From positions 7,804,492 through 7,868,491 of the forward strand of contig NC_057714.1 in the NCBI RefSeq assembly GCF_004010195.1: DNA of 64,000 nt. The letters are read 5' to 3'. The position numbers and the translations under genes were made by a program. The notes below the pieces were generated by a model. That model made no database searches, was not told where the DNA came from, and saw only the letters and a program-made list of their open reading frames with translations. The DNA is from Chiloscyllium plagiosum. Its lineage: Eukaryota. Shown here piece after piece: positions 6,409-62,569 of the stretch (the first letter of the stretch is position 1; each line of letters begins with the position of its first letter).

Positions 6409-8790
6409 TGTTACGACACAGCGGTGAACCCCTCTGTTAATTAAACCAAACAATTCCAAAAGTGGCCTAACCAATGTCCTGTACAGACGCAACATGACCT
6501 CCCAATTCCTGTACTCAATATTCTGACCAATAAAGGAAGGCATACCAAACCCTTCTTTACTGTCCTAACCCTTCTTTACTATCCTCACTACCTGCGACTC
6601 CACTTGCAAAGAGGTATGTACCTGCACTCCAAGGTCTCTTTGTTCAGCAACACTCCCTAGGATCTTATCATTAAGTGTATAAGTCCTGCTAATATTTGCT
6701 TTCCTGAAATGCAGCACCTTGCACTTAAGATATAAAAGAGAGCTAAGTGGCTTTGAAAGGATTAAGTCTGTAGGGGTGTTGTTTTATTGGAACAGCATTT
6801 CCTACTTGCACCTCATGCACAATAGTATTAGCCCTCCCCATCTTATTCCTGCATAAGTCCTCATACTGCTGCAACAAACCTTTCAACTGGGTTCTTTGCT
6901 CCTGAAGCAAATCCCACTCCTCAAGGACTTCCTCATTGCTTAATGCATTTTGAGGAGCCATAAAACTCCTCAACACCTGGACTTGATTCCTCACTCTGCA
7001 GGACATTATCTAAGACCTGTTTTTCCAGTTCCCTGTCTCGATTATGATAAGGTTTCAACATATTCACATGACATTCCCAATACAGTTTTTTCCTTTCATC
7101 TTTACCAGATAGTTTATCTGACAATGTTTTCTCATTTGATAGGGACCACAAAACCTCGCTTTGAAGGGATCTCCTACCACTGGTAACAATACTAACACAG
7201 CATCCCCATGGGAAAACATCTGAATTTTAGAGGTTTTATCTGCCATCTGTTTCATTCTATGCTGTGCCCTCTTTAGGTGCTGTTTAGCTAACTCACCTAC
7301 CCAATTTAATCTCTCCCTCACCTCAGATATGTAATCCAATTGTGAGATTTCCAGCTTCGGTCTTGTCGATTTCTCTTTCATTAATTTCAAAGGCCCTCTC
7401 ACTTCATGTCTGAATATTGACACAAAGGGAGTAAACTCATAGATTTGTTTGGGGTATCTCTAATGGAAAACAATACAAATGGAATAACTTTATACCAGTC
7501 ATTCAGCTAATCCTGACAATATGCTCTTAACATGGTCTTCAGGGTCTGATGCCACCTTTCCAAAGCACCAGGGATTTAGGATGTAATGCACCTGACTTAA
7601 AATGCTGCATACCTAAGCTATCCATGACTTCCTTAAATAGCCTAAGGGTAAAATTAGAACCTTGGTCTGACTGAATTTCTCTGGGTAGCCCATACCGCGT
7701 GAAGAAAGCTACTAACTCCTCTCCCACCCTTTTTGCCTTAATACTCCATAGTGGAATTGCCTCCGGAAATCTGGTAGATACATCCATTATGGTTAGCAAG
7801 TACTGGTTTCCACTTTTAGTTTTAGGAAGGGGACCTACACAATCAATCATAACCCACGTGGAAGGTTCTTCAAATGTGGGAAATAGCAGCAAACATGCTG
7901 GTTTTATTACTGCCTGTGGCTTACCTACCATTTGGCATGTATGACATGAACAGCAAAAGTTAACCACATCCTTGTGCAGTCCAGGCCAATAGAAATGCTT
8001 TTGGGCCTTAGCCTGAGTCTTCCTCACACCTGGGTGATCTCCTACAGGTAGTTCATGTGCTACCCATAACACTTCCTGTCTGTATGCAACCAGCAACATA
8101 ATCTGGTGCACTTCCATCCATTTTTCCTCTGCACTAACCTGCTGTGGTCTCCATTTTCATCTTAGGATTCTTTCTTTAAAATACTAACCCTCAGGAATAC
8201 ATTCTGACTCTTTTTCTGAGTATGCATCAATGTATATATATCTTTTATTGTCTCATCTTTCTGTTGTGAGTCCATTAGCCTTTCCGGACTAAACACTTCT
8301 GCATGAGCCTCTGCCTATTCAGGTTTTTCCTGCACGATTACATCAAACAGGGTATCTGCTAACTGAACCTAACTGGAATCTTGTTACTACACAGTCTGGA
8401 CAAATTCCAGAATATTTTTCTTTTAACTCCTCAGTTCTCTGGTTTTCCTTTGGCTTCTCCACAACAAGGGGTGTCACTCCTGCCTTGGATCCTGCTAAAT
8501 CATTCCCAAGAACAAAATGTATTCCTGGAACTGTCACCCTGTCAATCACTCCCACTGTTACTTCCCCAGTCTTGAGTTTGCACTCCAATCTGATCTTACA
8601 TAGGGGAATGCTAAATTTCTGCCCATCTATTCCACAAGTTACTGTGCTCTTGGATAACAGGTCAGAAAGCGTGCAAATACATTAATCTCTTGCGATTAGA
8701 GAATGATTAGATCCTGTATCTCTCAAAATTATAACTTCATTCCCTTTTCCCCCTGTTCTTTTTGAGTAAAGTTTACCCACCGAGGTGAAA
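6409..8790 (-). mobile_element. Degraded Ty3/gypsy LTR retrotransposon of the Gmr1 type (protease-integrase-RT order)
   Basis: On the minus strand: protease LRDTG at 8712-8726 and ...VLGND; integrase HHCC (AHE..GDH, CHTC), MIDCVGPLP and SDQGSNF (7539-8117), and a GPY module (7064-7423); then the RT N-terminus IKQHPYRLNP (6743-7006). A possible LTR terminus TGTTACG lies at 6409. Confidence 0.85.
6455..6725 (-). mobile_element. Internal CR1 RT fragment nested in the LTR element
   Basis: GTGGCCTAACCAATGTCCTGTACAG..GCAACATGACCTCCCAA is the reverse complement of 113-160. Confidence 0.8.
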
Positions 8791-15760: not shown

Positions 15761-17967
15761 AATCCAATCAATACCACAAAGCATTTACAAAGCAACATGC
15801 TCTACAATATACACCTGTCTCATTCCAAATTCAAAACATTGTACTGACCACAATTATCCTTAGAGTGTCCATTATACACTCACAAATACAAACACAATAA
15901 CTCAAGCTGTGTGGTGCACTATTATGTTTAATCTTCATTCACACCTGATCCCCATTATAATTGTGCACATCATTCACATTCATGTGCTGGTCCCATTGAC
16001 ATTACATATTGCACTTAGTCTTCACTTATATGTACTACAGATTCTTATAGTTTAGCCTCTTTCTCTCAGAAATGTAATTTATGAATCTGGACTGGATGGT
16101 ATGACACAACCTACTACTAAGTGCCTTATTATAAGCAAAAACATGTGTGGGCCATAAATTGAATTTATCCCCCTATTGTTCAAACATCATATTTTGGTTG
16201 GGAATATCTCATCCTCATTCTTGACCATCTGAGCCATTCTTGGGAAGCAACACCCTTACTTAAGATTTTTTAAGATTTAAATAGATAGTATTGCTCAGTT
16301 TTAATTTGAGTGTCTCCAGCTTTGAGTTGCATATTAATGAAGGTGCAAAATATTCATGTTATGATGAAACAGAAAGGGAACTTATCTGTATAGACCACCC
16401 CTTTTCTTTATTAGAATAAGTTAAATTTCTGACTCAAAAAGCAGAGGATGACATTGGCAGCAGTTGAAATATTAACAGTTGCCACAAAAGGAGCAACAAC
16501 AGCAACAACAACTCATGTCTAAATTGTGCCAAGTTTGTCAAAAGCAAACAAATTGAACACATTATTTCAAATCAGATCTCTGGAGCACTTTCCTAATCTC
16601 TTACATTTAAGTTTCATGCCCTTTGTTGTGAGGTCCAAGATTCTTTGAACATATAAACGGCTCTCATTGCACCTGCGAGCTAATATTTAATGACCTGTAC
16701 CCTAAAGGGCTGATTTTGCAGTCCCAGCAGGAAACAGTAGTCACAGGAAGCACAGTGCAGGAAATTGTAGGTGCAAAGACTGTGCTTTTCCATCTATTAA
16801 ATGAATCAATGAAAAACCACAGGCTCTGTGTGCAAAATTTCCCACATTACACCCCTGTGGATGTTGTTCCTTGCCGGCAGTGCACAAGTATGGAATCAAC
16901 TCTTAAATCCCTTTGTTCATTTACCAAGTGTTGAATTAGTTATTTTCTTTAGCAGTTTCTCCTCTGAGTCAAAAGTCTGTGCCTTCACCAACCTCTGTTA
17001 ACTTGAGCGAGTAATCGTCCTTTGAATAAGACATTAAACTAAAATCTTTTGAGGAGAACATCAAACAGCCAGGACATTATTTGAGTTGTCCTGGGTTCTT
17101 AGCTAATATTCACCACTCACACCCTTTCCTAACCCCTCTCTCAGTCAAATCATTAAATGTACTAAAAACTATACACCTTGTGTCCTCTGGTCTGACTGGT
17201 CACTGAACCTGTGAGAGTTTACTGCTGATTAATTTTGTCAGATTGGATGGATCTTAGATTTCTAATACTTTTCCAGTGTGCTTCGGATGAAATTTGTTGG
17301 CATTAGAATTTGATGCTTTCCTTTTAATATAATGCATTTGGTTTGTTCGATATTAGTTATTTGATCATTCAACATTTTACCAGTGGGCATTGTACAGGGT
17401 TTAATTAAGTTGTAAGTATCTGATTGTTTAAAACCAGTCTTGCAACTGGCTAAATGAGTATTAGTTCTATTGTCCTTTAATATTTTATCATTATGTACAT
17501 TGTTACATTGGGTGGCAATTTGTTTTCTAGTTACATGTAATCTGACAATATCAAGAGTCTAAGGTAATGGAATGCAATGTCAAGATGTGCTTTCAAAATC
17601 TTCTAAATGAGATTAGCCAGGGATCAGAACTGGGGCTTCGATATTCTTTTGCTGTATGTAAGAAGCTGCACCAGTGATTCATTAACTAGGTGTCAGGTAT
17701 TATTTTATGCAAGATTCCTTGAACATCAGGTTGGAAGACTCCTAAATGTTCTTCCAAAACTTTGTGCATAAGTTTGTTTGGGTATGCCTCCACCTGGTCT
17801 AGTTGCACTGTTCCTGGGTCAAGTGTATGTGATTAGCTGAGCGTTAGTTAAGTGGTGCGCATATGCCAAAGGAGGAATTGGTACTGTTACTTTGCATGGA
17901 TATGAGAAGATTTTAGTATGCACAAAAAGGCAGAAATGAGAAATAAGAACTGAGGATGCTGTAAGTC

Positions 17968-21900: not shown

Positions 21901-22539
21901 TGCCCATTTGTAACGACCAATAAATCTCAAACCTCCCATGTCTCAGTGCTGAATTAACTGGATCAGATCCATTTGTCCAACCATATTTCATATAATCAGC
22001 TCCAACATAGACGGTTATACCCACGTTAGGTAAACTGCATAATTCTGTTCAAAGGCAAATGCGCGTCTGGATTTCCACGCAAGTTAGCACTTCTGATCTC
22101 ATCAGCCTGTGTATCTCGCAAAGTAAATGCGGTTGCCGCCTCTGTGGCCTTGACTCGAACAGCTTGAAGATTAACCGGAGGGGTCTTTACTGCTTTACCT
22201 TGCTATTGAAGTGCACAATTGTAATAGAATGATCCATTTGCGTAAGTGCGTAAGTACATTGCCTTGTGACAGGAATGGTTGTGCTTTGTTTTACAGCAAG
22301 GCGAAAGTCTGCCTTCCGTACATAGATGCTGTTAACCTAGATAAATACAAATCAGGACCAAGTCTTTGCAATCTTTTGAGATATGACTGGAAAAAAAAGC
22401 AGGATTATATTCTTGAAAGTCTTCAAGTAGCTCTGCAGACATCTAGTGGGAAAGTTGCGCTACTGCAGGAGAAACTCAGATGATCTTGCTGGTAATCTGG
22501 AATACATGCACTGTACATGAATTTTACTCCTGTTGCTCG

Positions 22540-22850
22540 GAGTGTCAGATACTATCCTTTCCAATGCACGTTTCAGACTTAGAACTGATGCAGTTCGGTG
22601 ATATTGACATCTCGTGATTGTGGAGTTGCTGCTACTCGCAGCATCTGAGTGTTTGTGATTTCCAGCTATTCCCGAAAGCTCCTTATCCAACCTAAGCCTG
22701 GGCTGATATGTAGGGTCACCCGTGCTTATCAGGAAGCTCTGGGTTCCCACGATCCTCTAATCTCACTGGTCAAACTAAGACGAATACTAATGAACTAGGC
22801 CTGAGGATAACCCGTTGCCATCCCTCGTTCTTTACTCCTAGCGAATGAGT
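22540..22850 (+). pseudogene. HoxA14-psi: Candidate exon-1 remnant of HoxA14 pseudogene
   Basis: Hox13/14-type N-terminal motifs occur in the right order with indels and stops: YYPF (22550-22561), CCT TAT c CAA CCT AAG CCT GGG CTG AT ATG, roughly PYQPKPG-L(D)M (22681-22710; compare [11 protein letters not shown] in this window's HoxA13), and HDPLI (22748-22762; compare RHETLL). Confidence 0.55.
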
Positions 22851-24874
22851 AATTCATAACCCTCCTTCATTAAGTGGCTAAAACAGAACAAATTATCGTG
22901 ACTGGCATTAATTTCTGATCAGTTTAATAACATTTGCAATCAGAATTATCACGTTACGTTTAATTTTGAACGACAAAAAAAATGACTGCTGTGATATTTT
23001 GCAGAAATGCTGACAGGCCAGGTTTATATACTAAAATAATACCACATCCATAAAATGGCTAGGACAAGCTTATATTGTCTCTGACTTCTCATAGTCTTAG
23101 TTCTCGTTTGTATTTATTACATCGAATAAATATAAATTTATTTTCTATCCTGTCCTGCCTGATAGTAAGCCCATTTTCGGTGTGGAACACTTCATTTTAA
23201 ACGTTTGTTGAATATTGCAGTCCCTGTCTAATTCAATGAAGCAACGAGCTACCCAGTTCACCTCTAAAATTGTGTTTGGTAGAAGGTTGTCAGAGTGCTG
23301 CATTTCGGGAATCGTAAATTGCAAAAGAGAAATGTCTCAGCCTAAAAGCGACAGTAAAACTTTATGTTGATGCTATCCTCCACTCAAGTGCCCAAAACGA
23401 TATTAACAGATTTTCATTTTACGACTTAATATATGGCATAATTTTAAATAGTTCATTGGGGTGGGTGTCGAGATTTTTTTTACTGTTCGGGAAGCATTTC
23501 ACTTGCAAACTGGAAAGCGAGAAAATAACCCAGTTATCCTTTCGTGCTTCCTTTATCACTGAAACTTGTAAAAGTCATTGAAGATTTTCAGAGGCGGTTG
23601 TGATCGAAAATGTGCAGATGTTTATTTCGATATTGTTTATACAGATAACCGAAGCCTGACACAGAAAAGATGGTTTGTTTAAATATTCAGTGTCATAGTG
23701 TAAATTCTTCCTAAGTACCCCCGAGTTGATTTTAACCGAAAGATATTCATGCAGAAATATATTTTGCAGTTGCATGTTGAAGTACATTTTAAATAATACA
23801 ATGGACCATTCATTAAACCTAAACAAGACGTTGTTCTCCAAAGATTAATTATTTAGCAAGGTGGCAGACACATTTTAATTAACATATATTTAGTGATGCA
23901 AAATCGAAAGTTATTGAGAGGAAATTGTACCAGTATTCACTGTAATACCTCCCAAGAAACTATATTTTACTTATCTAGATGGTAATAACAAAAAATAAAG
24001 TATTAGGAATGAAAAATCAAAACAATTTATAGTGAATGGTACCAAGACACTTTGGTTCGAAGTTCTAACGTCCGGATTCTCAAAATATGTGTATACAACA
24101 CCGGCAGAAAACAATATTTTATTAAGAAAGATATGACTTTGTATTTGGCACACAGCGAGCTATGTAACAGAAAATAGTGCCAACGCAAACGATATGCCGT
24201 TAAAACAAAACAAGTTAAAAATTCACAAAATATATCTTGTTAAGGATTGTGAAAATGGAGTGGTCTTAAAATTACAAGCATTTACAATGCGTTATAATGA
24301 ACTAACTGATATTTTAGTTTTGACATTTTACCTGTTAAGTGTGAGAAAGGACTATGCTGACATAGTGTGGACATCATTAATATCACAGTGAAATAATATC
24401 GGTTTCTTGTTTTCTGGCTGGTCTTGATTCGTATGTCTTCAAACCAATGACGTTTTATACACACAAACTATGAACTTTGGCATTTGTCATTTTAAACAGA
24501 GCACGTATATGATTTCACACTATAATTGCATCTTCTTGCGTGCGTTCTTTCTGGAACTTGAAAAGATGCATGTCTTACATGAATTTAAAATCATATAGAG
24601 TTTGAGGTAGCAGTTTTTTATAGAATGCTGGTGGTTTGAGATCGTAAATTCAAGTTACCTCAACGCTGACATCTGCACATACATATGTGTACTGGAAATC
24701 TTTATCTGTATTCATTGGGCTTTTGTCATTCAGGAAAAAGCCAGTATGGAACTTTACATCTATTTAGTTATAACGACGAACGATCCTTACATACACTTTA
24801 AGGTCGGAGATGATAATGATAAACATAACAATGAAAATAATTAAATCAAATAATGTGATATTATTCGTTTGCAG

Positions 24875-25067
24875 TCCTGAGTGATCATTCACCCGGTCTG
24901 CCCACCCACGAGCCCAGTATACGCAGGAGAAGAAAAGACTCCATCATCGCAAAGTCCAGACTGCATAACTCCACAGTGCTTTCCAGGAAATGTGCTATCA
25001 AACGGTTGCAATACAACATCAGCCAAAACAAAATACTTTAAGAGAAGTGGAGGAGGCAGAACAACAG
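24875..25067 (+). pseudogene. HoxA14-psi: HoxA14 pseudogene exon 2 (5' part of split homeobox)
   Basis: An acceptor TTTGCAG ends at 24874. The exon reads ...PSIRR/KKRLHHRKVQTA*LHSAFQEMCYQT (KKR at 24930-24938; TAA at 24966 replacing GAA/E15), then NIS in a shifted frame. It ends GAA CAA CAG|ATAAGT (mutated GTAAGT donor) at the Hox14 intra-homeobox intron site. Confidence 0.8.
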
Positions 25068-25170
25068 ATAAGTACTAGGAGATTCATAATGGGAATTATT
25101 CCAGACGAGTTTAAAATCAAATGAACGTTATTTTCTTGAGAGCTCACTATGGCAGCATTTTCTCTTGACA

Positions 25171-25245
25171 GTAAAAATTCTGGTAAAATTCTGGCTTCGA
25201 GACCAGCATCATGAACCAATAAGGCTCAGTCGCCGCCAGCAAATT
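25171..25245 (+). pseudogene. HoxA14-psi: HoxA14 pseudogene exon 3 (helix 3 of homeobox)
   Basis: An acceptor TTTTCTCTTGACAG ends at 25171. GTA AAA TTC TGG CTT CGA GAC CAG CAT CAT GAA (25183-25215) reads VKFWLRDQHHE, and each codon is 0-1 substitutions from VKIWFQNQRQK. The Q at the NQR position is diagnostic of group 14. Confidence 0.8.
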
Positions 25246-28200
25246 GGGATAAATAATTTAGTTGTGGACCGCAGTACTAAAACTGGGCCCTTACAATTAA
25301 AATATCTTGCTGTGGGAATATTTTTTTTTGATAAATGTTAATTGGGTCAAAACGAGGAAGTGATAATGCACTTAGATTTAAAGCAGGACGAGGTAACTCT
25401 TCGTTTGAAGCAAATTACCCTTGTTTGGATCATTTTAAATGAGATGCACATTTTGAATGGAACGGCTAATAAGCCATGCTCCAAATTCGTCATTGCTTAT
25501 TTCAAGATTTCGTGTAGTTTGAACAATAGTTCTACTTGAGCATTGTTAGAATATATTAGAATAGTTCTGCTCAAATGGTTGCGTTTTCTATTGTTTGACA
25601 ACAGCGTTCTCACTACTATATTTTAAGCTGATGATGTCTGTTGCAGCAGTTTCATGAACAGTTGTTTCAATGCACCTGACTTATTTAAATGTTCGTACAA
25701 TTTTACTTTGCAATGAAATAAATGTGCACACCTACTGTGCTTAATGAAGGTGATACAGTCGAAAGCGTTAGCCGCTGACATCAGTATGAAATACCTAGGC
25801 AGATGTGTACCAATAAGTTAAATATGACAAGATCAATAACTGAAGAACAGCACTCTGTTCCTCGATTATAGTTGACAAAAAAAACATACATTATTATATT
25901 TCGAATGGTGGACAGTCATCAGTAAATGCGAACAATAAAGTTATTAGCCTTTTAACATACTGTCTCTGAATGTGTTCCATTGACCAACGAGGCCAGCACA
26001 AATACATATGCAAAACATTTGTACAAACGCTGCATTCCGAAACGACTAGATAATTGAAATGATACAAACTCGATGAAATCTTAATATGGCCAGTTATACC
26101 AAAGTCAGTTCTGGTAAGTAACAAGTTGTTCTCCAAATATATATGACACATCTACAAAGTCTATCATAAGTGGCTCGTTCATGAAACAAGTCAGGAGTCA
26201 GCACTCACAATGAAGACTCGGGATGTGCTAGAATTAGAGGATAAAAGGAAAAAAATAATAACCAGTCCATAATGTAAATATATTTATTCTTATGCATGTA
26301 ATAGTACTGTAAATCAGGTAGTCAATGGACAGCTAGATTTTGATTAAGCATTTTGATAGCTTTCATTCGGGCTCCAGAATAGAAATTTAAAATATTTCAG
26401 AAAAGTACGGTGGATGCTTGCAAGGTAGGTTGGCCAATAGAATTGCAGATATAAATCTAATGATCATATAAGTATTCCAAATGAAGTGGTAGGATATGTG
26501 GTGAACATACTGTGTAGTTAATTGTTTTGGGGTAATAATCAAGGTAGCACTGTAATATCATACGGCGATTAGTTTAGCCAAAGTCCAGAAACCATTCTAA
26601 CACAAGTAATACATCTGTAATAGAACCACACGAGAATAAAAATAAAACCCTCTTTACTGGTTTTGTCTATGATATTGTTTCACAATACTAACCCGTGGTA
26701 TCGAAAATTTGAGATGTTTGCAGCGTGAGTGAAGGTCAAGTAATATTGGTGTATAAGTGATGTGGCATATCATATGTCCCATATTGTAGAAAACCAGGAA
26801 TCAAAACGGCACTCATCAAGTTATTTATTTGAATTCACCACTGAGTTTTTATAAATTATTGGTAAATGATCGCTAACAAATAAGTGGAATAAACTACGAA
26901 AATATAAACTGCACGATTGTGTTGTCTAATTAACCGCATAGCTTAGAGTCCATGCATGTTATTTTCATTTCAAATACATTTGGATAGAAATAATGGAAAA
27001 CGACATTAGCAAATTCGAGAACAGGTACAATACAGAAGCAGAAACAAATTACCACAAAGGGTTCTAGAAATGTTCTGAGCTAAGAATAATAAATGCAATT
27101 AACGTTTTGTTGTTTGATATCATAAACGTTTCCGGACAATAGTCTAAACTTATTGCATAGTTTTCACATAAAAGGAAACTCAACATCTTATAATTCAATT
27201 TTTACCTTGTTCGAACGAGTAAGCGCGCGACAAGTCCCAGTTCCAACATACGGTTAATTCTTTAAAGTCAATATTTCTCAAATTAATCACCATTGATAAA
27301 ATATTCACAGACATTACATCAAACCCGAAGATCCCTTTTCATACGGAAGAATTTGGGGGATTAGAATATATAGGCTTCCGGAATACTTTCATTCATTAGG
27401 TGGAAATGACACATCAAGATAACAGTAATCACAAAAAACTGGTTGATAGTAACCCTATATTGATACAATAAAACGATTAATACGCAAACTCTCTTTTATT
27501 CAAGAATAATTCTTGAACATATTTTAGATGACACCAAATAACGAAATAATCTGCACAACTGTGCGTGTATCCCACTCAGTTTTACTATAGCGACCGTTTT
27601 GATTGCACGCACTTATAAAGCGCACCTTTGTGATATTTATCGACATTTGTAGGCAGACAGAACAAATCATGACTGGACTGAAAACACAGAGCTGATGTAC
27701 ATCAAGAGATGTAACTCAGGGATTATGTGATACAATTAAAGTACATGGGTTGATTTTACTTAACGAAAAGTAGTCAATCATTACAAAAACTGTATTTGAA
27801 TTATCAGCTATAAAGTGGAATCATTACAGTTCATTTCAATATCTAGAATAGCAGTGTACAATACCTCTCTGGACAGATACTCCTTATTGATGATGTCCTG
27901 ATCTGTGGATAGTTTGATACCAATTCTTGGAGATAACAGTTTACACGATAGTACCATCGTCAGTACTTTGGCGTGATATGACCTTCTACAGAATACCCCT
28001 ACCTTTTCCAATAATATGAAGGCCTTCCAGGCAGCTCGAGACAAGAGGTTTTGTAAACAGTACATTTAAACCGGATGCAATGCCACATAATTTGCAATGT
28101 ATCTGAAAACGACTGCATCCATTTCACACCCTTTTGCCAGCCAAGCAGAAACAGCCTGGAAATGAAGACGGTATGGTCAGTAGAATTTTTTTTTCATTTG

Positions 28201-31298: not shown

Positions 31299-31944
31299 AT
31301 GACAGCGTCCGTGATACTTCATCCCCGCTGGATCGACACAGTAATGTTCGTCTACGACAACAGTTTGGATGAAATTAATAAAAACATGGATGGATTTTCG
31401 GGAGGGAACTTCACAGCAAATCAATGCAGGAATTTGATGACCCATCCAGCATCCCTAGCTCCCAGCTCTGCCTACTCGTCGAGTGAAGTGCCAGCCTCTG
31501 GCATCGCTGAACCTGTCAAACAGTGCAGTCCTTGTCCTGCTCAAACTTCGTCCAGTGCCGCCCTTCCTTATGGATACTTTGGGAGCAGTTACTATCCCTG
31601 CCGCATGAGCCACCATAGCAGTATCAAGTCCTGTGCTCAGCCCTCTACCTTGTCTGGCTATCCTGCCGACAAGTACATGGACACGTCTGCCGGCGAGGAA
31701 TTCACCTCCAGAGCTAAGGAGTTCGCTTTCTATCAAGGTTACGCGGGGCCGTACCAACCGATGCCCAGTTATTTGGACGTACCTGTGGTTCCTACCATCA
31801 GCACTGCCGGGGAACCGAGACATGAAACATTATTATCCATGGAGAGCTACCAGCCCTGGGCAATTACCAATGGGTGGAACGGGCAAGTCTGCTGCTCGAA
31901 AGAGCAACCTCAAGCTACCCACCTCTGGAAATCAAGCTTGCCAG
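31299..31944 (+). CDS. HoxA13: Homeobox protein HoxA13, exon 1
   Basis: The N-terminus [21 protein letters not shown] is typical of HoxA13, followed by [21 protein letters not shown] and [14 protein letters not shown] phase-1 donor G|GTAAGT lies at 31944/31945. Confidence 0.97.
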
Positions 31945-32354
31945 GTAAGTATAGATAAACACGAGTCTTTCAATGCAGTGCCAAACTGGTAAATTGAAGG
32001 GAACAAAGCATTGCGAGATGTAAATACACACGACTAATTGGTACTAAGTCTTCAAAGGATTATGATTAAGACAGTATATGGGTGATGCCCCAGTACCAGC
32101 ACCGCTATAGTAGCATGCAGTTAATGTTTATTGCCTAGATATCATTATGCATGATTTTCCATTATCACTTCTTAATCCTCATACATTTTCAAAATTACGT
32201 TTTTTGCCATATAATTTATTACACCAGGTAGAGTCGAGATAATATCCCCCACGGCATACTCTTGAACTTGACTCCGGTGTCAGTTACAGTTTTTGTGTTT
32301 TTTTTGACGACTGCTAAATGCAATGGATGGTAAGGTGTGCTTTCCTCTTCACAG

Positions 32355-32599
32355 ACGTCGTTTCGCATCCCTCGGATGCGAGCTCTTTTCGGCGTGGGAG
32401 GAAGAAAAGAGTGCCTTACACCAAAGTGCAGTTGAAAGAACTTGAGCGGGAATATGCCACCAATAAATTCATCACCAAGGACAAACGAAGGAGGATATCT
32501 GCATCTACAAACCTCTCTGAGAGACAAGTCACTATTTGGTTTCAAAACAGACGAGTCAAAGAAAAGAAAGTTCTCACTAAACTGAAAAGTAACAGCTAG
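32355..32599 (+). CDS. HoxA13: Homeobox protein HoxA13, exon 2 (spliced protein ~296 aa)
   Basis: Acceptor TTTCCTCTTCACAG; homeodomain [58 protein letters not shown]; stop TAG at 32597-32599. Confidence 0.97.
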
Positions 32600-54900: not shown

Positions 54901-57900
54901 CGGTGTAAAAACATCTTAAGGAACTGGAGGTTTTTTTTTAAATAGTCTGTAGATGGCAGCTACTTATTCTAGTTGGTAGACTGAAAGGAATTTACTGCGC
55001 ACACGCATAATGACGAGTACACTTGAAGGGTGAGGTTTTTTTTAACACAACACTTCATAAAGTGTTACATAGATTTTTTTGTTAATAAAATTACATGTTA
55101 AGTAATTGAAAGTAATCTCATATAGATCGACAAGTGGTGAGTGTACGAAGACTTTTCGAATCTTTATTTAGCAAAGCACAATGAAAGACTCATTCTGTCT
55201 GGCTTTCAGTCTTAAGTTCACGATCTAGGCTAAGAACGAGCCCGAGCTCTGAGTGCGGTCATCCTGATCTGTTCAGGCTTTGAAATCACTTTTTTGCCTC
55301 AGAATGACCACTCGCTCTACTGCCTTCCACGCTCGCTCTTTGGCCAGTGGTTGGAGAACGTATCGTTTACCTCATTTGATGCAGAGTTTCGAGACGTTTG
55401 TTTATTGCTGGCGCGTTGGAGGAGAAATGGAGAACTCTTGTAATAATCAGGATCGATACAGCTTGAGAAAAAGAAAATGGTCTTCGTTATTCTTTCTTAT
55501 GTCAAGGGAAAGTTGTTACACGCCGCCGAAATATTGCACAACATACGGATTTAGACGTTTTCTACAACTATATCTTACATCTTTTTCTTGTCGTGTTACG
55601 ATCAAGTCATTTCATCTTTCGTCTCCTTCTCGGTAGAGTTAATAATATTTCCTGACTGTTAACAATGTCACAATGCGTAATTACGACATCTTAGAAACTG
55701 GGAAAGGAACTTTCCCCTGCATATCCTTGCTGCTTCAATTACTTCCCAGTGCGTGTGTTTTTAATGTATACAGCAGTCACACGGCCCTCGCCCCATTCCT
55801 ACCAATAAAGTTTGGAAAGGACTGCAGTGCCCCTAGAAACTGCAGCAACCAATCTACTATCCACATTACAGTTTTACTGGGAAACTGGGTTATAAACGTT
55901 CAAGCCCATTGCCGATCCAAAAAATGCACTAATAAAATTATCCAAATATGGAATCAATATATTAAACAATGATATATTTACCACAAGAACCAGATAAATA
56001 TCCTGACTTCAATGCATAACCATGCTGCTAGTTAGCATTGGTGTACAGTAGCTTGAGTCTTTATATATGAGACTGGTATAGATGACAATTGTTATTTCCC
56101 TCCCATTAAATCTTTGTATGCTCCCATGATCATACGTGTCATAGGCACAGTGGGACTGCAAAAGGGAATATTTTCATTTTTTGATACAGCACGTTTAAGT
56201 TTTTATAGGTCTTCTGGACGACCGTGATAATTCTAAGCAGTTGTTTGTGCTAAAAAAAACAAGCAAGACGAAAGAATCCTCTGAGACGGCCCCTCAGCAA
56301 ACACGGTGCGTGTAAAGCCGGCCTTCATATCCCGCTGACTTTACCACAAACAATATTTTGAATAACCTGCTTTAGATTAGCAGCATTTTTGCACTTTAAT
56401 CCAGCGCCAGAGTTAAAGTAACAACAATGGAAATAATAGTGCCGAATTGGGTTTGCTCGTGGTGGGGGCAGAATTCGTGGACGGTTTCAAATTAACTCGT
56501 AGTAAAACGCAGCAATGCCAGAGGCTGAAGATTAAGTCCTTTGTCACAGTGAAATCACACTGTTTACTCCCGGTCCCAACCTAAAGAGTACATTTGCGAG
56601 CGTCATTGTTGGCAGCGCTTGATTACAGAGGTGGCCGAACAAAACACAAATAGCATGTCTCCTTTTCGGAGTCGCATTGATATATATCACATTGTACAGA
56701 TATTCCACAGAATCGTCAATTCGGAGAGGAATGGAGCGCACACTCTAATAAACACGGACGTTTATTTTGGCCATGATAATCTTTGGCGGAGTGTGGGGGT
56801 TGTTTGGTGGAAAGGGAACAGTGCTTACATTTTATCTCACTTAATTTCAACCGGCACTGATATTAAGAATTTTAGCGCCACTTTGTCTATATTTGTCCTT
56901 GAACGCCACCTCACTCGGGAAGAAAAGTTCACAATCCGAAGCTCCGGCTCCGCTCCTGCAAAGGACACAGTGCAGTTTGCAGTTTTTTTTTGTTCTTGTA
57001 GCTGTTCACTTCAATTCTAATAGTTGCCTTTGATCGGCTGGAGAGAGAAACTGTGGACGAGGATTCTGTTTCTGTGCCTTGTTTTAAACTTGACCGGCTT
57101 GTAGTTGAGAGCGTTGTAAAATTCTGTTTAACAGTCTTGTTTTCTCTTTTTAAGACGAAATGATGAGATCGATTTTATAGATGTGGTAAACGCTCTCTCC
57201 TGTAGCTCGGGCAGTCGAAGAATGCAATGGTTAAAGCATTGTAAAAGAAATGTTTTCGATTTCCTGAAATGGTAGGTATGAAATATCTGAAGTGGTCAAT
57301 ACCTAACTGATGTCTAAGATGCAATGCTGGTGAAGTAGAAGAGGAAAGAAAAGGAATAGATTATGTTACTTTATTAGTTTGTTGTCACTGACCTTCTACA
57401 CTTAAACCACAGAGCTGCAGCACATTGCACTAACCTGTTAAACTTTAGACTGCGAACAGCAAACCAGAAATGCAATTTAGAAGCTTTATGTCCAGATGTG
57501 ATTCTGAAACAGACGCGTGAAAGAATTGTTCTGTAACTTAACATTAATTAAATAAATTCTGTAGTATTAGTCAGAATGATAGTGCTCTCTGTGAAAATAG
57601 AGCAGCAACCATTATAGCTAATCACAGGCAGACCGTGAAAGTCAAGATTACTACTGGTTTCTCGCCTCTAATTGCCAGACAATTAAAGCCCACAATGAAA
57701 AGTGCAGAATAGCAGAGTTAGAAGTTCCATTTCTGTTAACTTCATCTGTGAGCAGTTTAAAATATGAAACTGATTGCTAGTCGGTTTCAGTCAGGCCGCT
57801 TTATGGATTTGCTAAAACTTGTGTTGATATTGTATGACATGTTGGAGCCTTTTTTACATTATTTTATTCGAAGGACGTGTTTCTAATAAAGTAGAACCGA

Positions 57901-62485: not shown

Positions 62486-62569
62486 AGCTGATGTGTGATT
62501 TAGGTAGTTTCATGTTGTTGGGGCTCAAGTCTATCTCTACAACACGAAACTGCCTGAATTACTGCAGTT
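62486..62569 (+). ncRNA. mir-196: miR-196 precursor (HoxA locus, positional orthologue of miR-196b)
   Basis: Mature TAGGTAGTTTCATGTTGTTGGG at 62501-62522; complementary 3' arm CTACAACACGAAACTGCCTGAA at ~62537-62558; basal stem GTGATT/AATTAC. It sits downstream of Hox10, as expected. Confidence 0.95.

What the first reader, a model, noticed from the sequence alone, without database searches (positions are those of the whole stretch)
22540..25245. Hidden three-exon HoxA14 pseudogene with intron-split homeobox
Seen: no ORF call shows this. Exon 2 reads KKRLHHRKVQTA*LHSAF....Y.T in correct homeodomain register (K3 K4 R5, K10, Q12, L16, F20) after a clean acceptor. It ends at EQQ|ATAAGT, and ~100 bp later an acceptor precedes VKFWLRDQHHE (from VKIWFQNQRQK). 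Established: group-14 Hox genes have a homeobox split after residue 44 and an NQR motif; HoxA14 is intact in coelacanth and reported as a pseudogene in horn shark and elephant shark. The class is therefore known, but this copy is probably unannotated and retains traces of all three exons.
Basis: partly seen in the sequence, partly recalled or inferred. Interest (0 to 1): 0.85.

Follow-up and report, generated by a model that had tools for sequence, protein, structure and literature searches.

The report
Fossil HoxA14 gene in bamboo shark
This is the decayed remnant of a body-patterning gene (HoxA14) in a bamboo shark's HoxA cluster, a kind of gene fossil already reported in another cartilaginous fish and useful mainly for tracing when the gene died.

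Summary
The window is the posterior HoxA cluster of a bamboo shark: its HoxA13 is identical to Chiloscyllium HoxA13. About 6 kb upstream of HoxA13, on the same strand, lie traces of an intron-split homeobox. Family searches (Pfam, PDB, protein databases) miss it, and profiles from HoxA10/11/13 alone give mixed, mostly non-significant results. Two published group-14 motifs fit well. ENRFLTPE needs 8/24 base changes in register, against 12-15 for the neighbouring paralogs. The exon-3 motif ranks 1 of 125,236 positions. Jointly, 0 of 300 shuffles reach the score. No real Hox14 sequence could be obtained, so the decisive alignment is unrun. Verdict: a HoxA14 unitary pseudogene (exons 2-3, about 0.87), a new member of a known class, without a gene model in one published C. 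punctatum set. Side finding: a second helix-3-like remnant at 57490, between HoxA11 and HoxA10.

The parts
22480..22848 (+). Candidate exon 1 remnant (unverified; boundaries are a guess)
   Evidence: ATG at 22480, 4 stops in 123 codons, GC 0.46 in 22500-22749, donor-like GTAATT at 22849 whose phase does not match exon 2; no database or paralog similarity
24875..25067 (+). Exon 2 remnant: linker plus homeodomain 1-44, with in-frame TAA (24966) and net +12 nt
   Evidence: HD2-27 rank 1 of 125,138; HD2-20 rank 1 of 125,176; acceptor CAG ending 24874; codon table
24987..25010 (+). Trace of the group-14-specific motif ENRFLTPE at HD22-29
   Evidence: 8/24 minimum base changes, top 0.6-0.8% of window positions; HoxA13 15, HoxA11 15, HoxA10 12; motif from PMC3038165 Table 1
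25068..25171 (+). Intron 2 inside the homeobox, 104 nt, phase 0, donor mutated (ATAAGT for GTAAGT), acceptor intact
25172..25194 (+). 11-nt tandem duplication at the start of exon 3; removing one unit puts V45 directly after the acceptor
   Evidence: TRF period 11, 100% match, 25174-25194
25183..25245 (+). Exon 3 remnant: homeodomain 45-60 (recognition helix); 3' end not defined
   Evidence: 5/27 minimum base changes to the group-14 helix-3 motif, rank 1 of 125,236
31299..32599 (+). Intact HoxA13 (context: fixes cluster identity and the position of the remnant)
   Evidence: Pfam HoxA13_N and Homeodomain; 214/214 and 76/76 identical to Chiloscyllium HoxA13

Best explanation
The locus is a unitary (in-place) pseudogene of HoxA14. 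After the vertebrate genome duplications, group-14 copies sat at the 5' end of several Hox clusters; cartilaginous fishes kept HoxD14 and let the A copy die. It has since decayed by point changes (at least about 19-33% of bases in the two motif blocks), a stop, small indels, an 11-nt duplication and loss of the intron-2 donor. It cannot encode a homeodomain (shown), and the homeobox intron probably cannot be spliced (inferred from AT for GT). Most likely it does nothing as a gene; it stays readable because this part of the cluster takes up few repeats and has not been deleted (inferred). Shown: cluster identity, position, lesions, motif fit. Inferred: orthology to coelacanth HoxA14, neutrality, ancient age.
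For: HoxA13, A11, A10 and miR-196 in order on +; HoxA13 identical to Chiloscyllium. Group-14 motif at HD22-29 needs 8/24 changes against 15, 15 and 12 for paralogs. Joint exon 2 + exon 3 score with group-14 motifs 35.2 and 38.6 bits, best elsewhere 13.3 and 22.7, 0 of 300 whole-window two-strand shuffles; the same columns from paralogs alone 82 and 119 of 300. HD2-20 + helix-3 motif 0 of 400, HD2-27 version 2 of 400. Donor-like site exactly after Q44; acceptor-to-V45 gap equals the duplication period. Alignments not told the intron position put the break at 44/45 in 3 of 4 settings and at 43/44. No self-repeat in 21-26.5 kb. Literature: three exons, WFQNQR and chondrichthyan group-14 pseudogenes; elephant-shark A and B pseudogenes.
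Against: No real Hox14 protein or gene was obtained, so there is no direct alignment or tree. Pfam, hmmsearch and nhmmer with window homeoboxes, PDB sequences and a word search all miss it. Flexible paralog-only alignments are not significant: 6/49, 2/39, 10/45 shuffles, a fourth setting preferring another site, and a rival exon 3 at 26360; 19.6 bits against a shuffle mean of 18.5; the fixed-block paralog joint test ranked another site first. The exon-2 block alone with the group-14 motif is reached by 6 and 12 of 300 shuffles. Block limits were chosen after seeing the sequence. Q52 is one base from R. The HD33-40 block ranks only about 10,000th-13,000th. Exon 1 is unsupported. Mulley 2009 did not believe Hoxa14 present in skate or horn shark and mentions no pseudogene.
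Confidence: 0.87

Rival explanations
1. Chance resemblance: AT-rich intergenic DNA read with hindsight into a homeodomain register.
For: All standard searches are blank; flexible paralog-only alignment is within shuffle range; blocks were picked post hoc.
Against: Two published motifs not used to find the locus fit in register and in order; joint 0 of 300 and 0 of 400 shuffles; donor, acceptor and duplication geometry agree; it lies where group 14 is expected.
Confidence: 0.06
2. A real homeobox fossil of another origin, such as a decayed tandem duplicate of HoxA13 or another posterior Hox gene.
For: The N-terminal arm and helix 1 match the paralog profile without any group-14 input; Q52 is one base from R; lamprey Hox13beta also has the homeobox intron.
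Against: HD22-29 fits the group-14 motif far better than A13, A11 or A10; the three intact HoxA homeoboxes here are unsplit.
Confidence: 0.04
3. It is HoxA14-derived but still active as a non-coding transcript or cis-regulatory element, like bowfin hoxd14, and is readable because it is constrained. (Compatible with the identity above; it differs in function.)
For: Bowfin hoxd14 is a pseudogene that is transcribed, spliced and regionally expressed; Hoxa14 exons persist as pseudogenized conserved sequence in turtles and crocodilians.
Against: The intron-2 donor is mutated and both motifs are eroded here, whereas bowfin keeps the junction and WFQNQR; gar hoxd14 shows no transcription. No transcript in the bamboo-shark table matched coelacanth XP_005993151, but that file is cut and such a decayed RNA would not be annotated, so this weighs little.
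Confidence: 0.12

Closest known systems
HoxA14 pseudogene of elephant shark (Callorhinchus milii); horn-shark HoxA14 pseudogene (recalled, Powers and Amemiya 2004, not held)
   Same: Dead group-14 copy at the 5' end of a chondrichthyan HoxA cluster in a lineage that keeps HoxD14 (bamboo shark Hoxd14 g5652)
   Different: Different lineage (bamboo shark); whether the lesions are shared could not be checked
Intact HoxA14 of coelacanth, lungfish and caecilians
   Same: Expected ortholog: same cluster position; group 14 has three exons and a split homeobox
   Different: Here a stop, indels, a dead donor and eroded motifs; exon 1 not demonstrated
Bowfin and gar hoxd14 pseudogenes
   Same: Group-14 pseudogene left in place between Evx and Hox13
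   Different: D cluster; bowfin keeps the splice junction and WFQNQR and is expressed, while this copy has lost the donor and most of the motif
Pseudogenized Hoxa14 exons of turtles and crocodilians
   Same: In-place HoxA14 remnants with stops and frameshifts
   Different: Independent loss in amniotes

Membership tests
Hox paralog group 14 (as a decayed locus) | Lies 5' of Hox13 on the same strand, between Evx and Hox13 | tested here: met
   6 kb upstream of HoxA13 on +. No Evx homeodomain is in the window; EVX1 g3546 and HOXA13 g3547 are consecutive gene IDs in C. punctatum, so Evx1 is inferred to lie upstream of the window
Hox paralog group 14 (as a decayed locus) | Homeobox split by an intron (position 44/45 is recalled; the papers read say only that the split is conserved) | tested here: met
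   Donor-like site right after Q44, acceptor 104 nt later, V45 adjacent once the 11-nt duplication is allowed for
Hox paralog group 14 (as a decayed locus) | Trace of WFQNQR in helix 3 | tested here: met
   Only W and the diagnostic Q are intact; 5/27 base changes, rank 1 of 125,236; the R version ranks 3 and scores 3.4-4.3 bits less, so Q52 alone is weak
Hox paralog group 14 (as a decayed locus) | Trace of group-14-specific ENRFLTPE in exon 2 | tested here: met
   8/24 changes at HD22-29 against 12-15 for paralogs; registers one codon off need 12 and 16
Hox paralog group 14 (as a decayed locus) | Three exons | tested here: inconclusive
   Exons 2 and 3 traced; exon 1 unsupported
Hox paralog group 14 (as a decayed locus) | Aligns to and groups with real Hox14 sequences | not tested
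   No Hox14 sequence was retrieved
HoxA cluster | Neighbours are HoxA genes | tested here: met
   HoxA11-type DUF3528; miR-196
Unitary pseudogene | Disabling lesions at the ancestral position, introns retained | tested here: met
   TAA at 24966, net +12 nt, AT donor, 11-nt duplication
Functional Hox gene | Open homeodomain frame with W48, F49, N51, R53 | tested here: not met
   Only W48 remains; in-frame stop
Transcribed Hox14 pseudogene (bowfin type) | Spliced, patterned transcripts | not testable with these tools
   No RNA-seq access; table check uninformative
Transposon or repeat | Copies elsewhere or repeat domains | tested here: not met
   No self-BLAST hit in 21-26.5 kb, no Rfam hit; only this window was searched, no genome-wide repeat library

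The most novel reading that the evidence does not exclude
This HoxA cluster holds two homeobox fossils: the HoxA14 remnant and a second recognition-helix remnant at 57490-57525, between HoxA11 and HoxA10, where no paralog group is expected. It would be the trace of an extinct extra posterior Hox gene (a Hox11- or Hox13-like duplicate) that I did not see in the gnathostome inventories I read. It needs 6/36 base changes to HoxA11 or HoxA13 HD45-56 (0 and 1 of 500 shuffles), but helices 1-2 are not found and it was noticed post hoc.
Probability: 0.15. Interest if true: 0.65.

Novelty: new member of a known kind. Interest (0 to 1): 0.3.

Why it matters
Modest. It extends the HoxA14 pseudogene to a carpet shark that is a working evo-devo model, and it supplies datable lesions (stop at 24966, GT-to-AT donor, 11-nt duplication, net +12 nt). 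Comparing these across sharks, rays and chimaeras would test whether HoxA14 died once before the holocephalan-elasmobranch split or several times, which PMC3509897 leaves as 'likely independently'. It also shows that standard family searches miss such fossils. It implies no new mechanism unless the locus proves transcribed or the second remnant proves real.

Tried and rejected
Pfam on five translations of the locus: 0 families. BLASTP of exon 2 against HoxA13 exon 2: E 0.09; exon-1 frame against HoxA13 exon 1: nothing. hmmsearch and nhmmer with the three window homeoboxes: locus not listed. PDB sequence search: one unrelated hit at E 1.5 for exon 2, none for exon 3. Getting real Hox14 proteins: the HoxA13 exon-1 search listed 120 of 379 hits, every named one HoxA13-type or hypothetical; the atlas gave only cluster names; profiles from short window pieces were mostly misaligned or weak and were never run against a database; exon-1 phmmer 0 hits; exon-2 word search 1 candidate, none scoring. 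First spliced alignment allowed many introns and is invalid. One-intron and free-intron versions find the locus but are not significant. Rival exon 3 at 26360 rejected: 10/27 changes against 5/27 and a weaker acceptor. My first guess of Evx1 at 18-20 kb was wrong: no Evx homeodomain in the window. Ravi 2009, Hara 2018 and Kuraku 2008 are not held. PMC9495127, PMC3534614, PMC10115646, PMC1965487, PMC5054437 and PMC1845163 passages added nothing on a HoxA14 pseudogene.

Full report
Setting. The long ORFs include three intact homeobox genes on +, and a profile of their homeodomains finds only these three in six frames. The gene at 31.3-32.6 kb has HoxA13_N and Homeodomain. Its best database hit is ray HoxA13 at 93%, and among 15 listed of 23 cluster members it is identical only to Chiloscyllium HoxA13 (214/214 and 76/76). 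HoxA11 (DUF3528), HoxA10 (named from its homeodomain and position) and miR-196 follow. The window is therefore the posterior HoxA cluster of a bamboo shark; the species within the genus is not fixed. Evx1 is not in the window. Self-repeats fall in 1-8 kb and 16-20 kb, none in 21-26.5 kb.

The observation. Three details differ. In one frame the last Q of exon 2 is codon 48, so the exon has a net 12 extra bases; by eye this is a 5-nt loss after HD27 and a 17-nt gain before HD42, but the middle block scores poorly, so only the net figure is firm. The acceptor ends at 25171 and V45 starts at 25183; TRF finds a perfect 11-nt duplication at 25174-25194, which explains the gap exactly and strengthens the case. 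The exon-2 acceptor is unremarkable.

Is it more than chance? Standard tools see nothing. With profiles built only from HoxA13, A11 and A10, the first part of exon 2 is the best site outside the intact genes: rank 1 of 125,138 for HD2-27 under BLOSUM, and under a neutral-decay codon model rank 1 for HD2-20 but rank 4-5 for HD2-27. The joint exon 2 + exon 3 score was best in the window with 1 of 60 shuffles above it, but other paralog-only versions were weaker or not significant: another site ranked first; 5 of 400; 6/49, 2/39 and 10/45, whose fourth setting preferred another site; 19.6 against a mean of 18.5. Paralogs alone therefore give a hint, not proof.

The discriminating test used two motifs from papers. 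PMC3509897 gives WFQNQR as diagnostic for group 14, and PMC3038165 Table 1 gives ENRFLTPE as the target of a group-14-specific primer. The helix-3 motif, extended by three residues of window HoxA11, ranks 25183 first of 125,236 positions with 5/27 changes. ENRFLTPE, placed at HD22-29 by the register of the N-terminal arm, needs 8/24 changes (top 0.6-0.8% of positions), while the same columns of A13, A11 and A10 need 15, 15 and 12, no better than random. The paper's product lengths (89 in the table, 84 in the text) do not fix the register; I tried three and only 22-29, the one expected from homeodomain homology, fits. Jointly the score is 35.2 or 38.6 bits, best elsewhere 13.3 or 22.7, with 0 of 300 whole-window shuffles reaching it; the paralog-only control on the same columns is reached by 82 and 119 of 300. 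The scoring models are my own and the blocks were chosen with hindsight, so these are strong indications, not formal P values.

Splice geometry agrees. CAG|[AG]TAAGT occurs 5 times on both strands of the window, once exactly after Q44. The acceptor is among the top 4.4% of 341 YAG sites by pyrimidine content. Alignments not told the intron position broke at 44/45 or 43/44, although joined a rival exon 3 at 26360 that fits the motif worse (10/27).

Exon 1 is not shown. The most open frame (22480-22848) had no hit among 1.84 billion representatives (one of three frames searched), no Pfam hit in three frames, no similarity to the first exons of A13, A11 or A10 or to a profile of 26 named HoxA13 proteins, and its stop count is only mildly low. 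It may be real but too decayed for these tests without a Hox14 query.

How it most likely works. It is a dead gene left in place. Shown: an in-frame stop, net +12 nt, AT for GT at the donor, a duplication at the start of exon 3, and loss of F49, N51 and R53. Inferred: origin from the A-cluster Hox14 copy, with HoxD14 kept (Hoxd14 g5652 is listed for bamboo shark); neutral decay; survival because Hox clusters exclude repeats (PMC2746220). I cannot date the loss. A bowfin-like expressed pseudogene (PMC8423624) is not excluded but is less likely given the dead donor.

What is known. A review reports HoxA14 and HoxB14 pseudogenes in elephant shark (PMC3707753). PMC3509897 mentions group-14 pseudogenes in several cartilaginous fishes, citing Powers and Amemiya 2004 and Ravi 2009; the horn-shark A14 pseudogene itself is recalled, not read. 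HoxA14 is intact in coelacanth and lungfish (PMC3038165, PMC7875771) and in caecilians, with pseudogenized exons in turtles and crocodilians (PMC11600591). PMC2746220 did not believe the gene present in skate or horn shark. In the C. punctatum gene set of PMC7932699, EVX1 and HOXA13 have consecutive IDs, so no model lies between them, and 'hoxa14' does not occur in its text or 12 supplements, one of them cut. Searches showed no paper on a bamboo-shark HoxA14 pseudogene; of 15 papers holding 'HoxA14', 14 were listed and I read passages of 8. Hara 2018, Ravi 2009 and Kuraku 2008 are not held and Powers and Amemiya 2004 was not looked up; any of them may already show it. For all papers I saw keyword passages only, plus one whole supplementary table and searched rows of PMC7932699 and a keyword search of PMC8423624 supplements (one file unreadable). 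Figures with Hox14 alignments are not held as text.

Side finding. At 57490-57525, about 600 bp before HoxA10, one frame reads as a recognition helix with two stops. It needs 6/36 changes to A11 or A13 HD45-56 (0 and 1 of 500 shuffles; A10 49 of 500; the shorter A13 48-55 block 11 of 500) and scored 25.6 bits with 0 of 400 shuffles. In the flexible model it scored 26.3 against a shuffle maximum of 28.5 in 131 shuffles of 11 kb, helices 1-2 score negative in register, and it was found post hoc. It is unexplained.

Verdict. Probable HoxA14 unitary pseudogene (exons 2-3), confidence about 0.87; exon 1 unverified; new member of a known kind; interest 0.3. The direct alignment to real Hox14 and the cross-species comparison remain open.

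Noticed in passing
window 57340-57525 (+): Second homeobox-like remnant between HoxA11 and HoxA10: helix-3-like block at 57490 (6/36 base changes to HoxA11 or HoxA13 HD45-56; 0 and 1 of 500 shuffles) and a basic, purine-rich patch 150 nt upstream in the same frame, 6 codons too far; helices 1-2 not found. No paralog group is expected here.
   Followed up: partly
window 62492-62565 (+): miR-196 precursor (Rfam 78.6 bits), downstream of HoxA10 as expected.
   Followed up: no
window 7064-8685 (-): Broken LTR-retrotransposon-like fragments with integrase domains (Integrase_H2C2, rve) in the repeat-rich flank; self-repeats cover parts of 1-8 kb and 16-20 kb and stop before the remnant.
   Followed up: partly
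window 1-31299: No Evx1 homeodomain within the 31 kb upstream of HoxA13; Evx1 is inferred to lie beyond the window start.
   Followed up: partly
window 24875-24926 (+): The linker before the homeodomain is stop-free in the neighbouring frame and would then give a phase-1 intron like HoxA13, suggesting a further 1-nt loss just before K3 (by eye).
   Followed up: no
window 17579-17605 (+): Another site 5/27 changes from the helix-3 motif, at the edge of the repeat zone, with no partner block; probably chance.
   Followed up: partly
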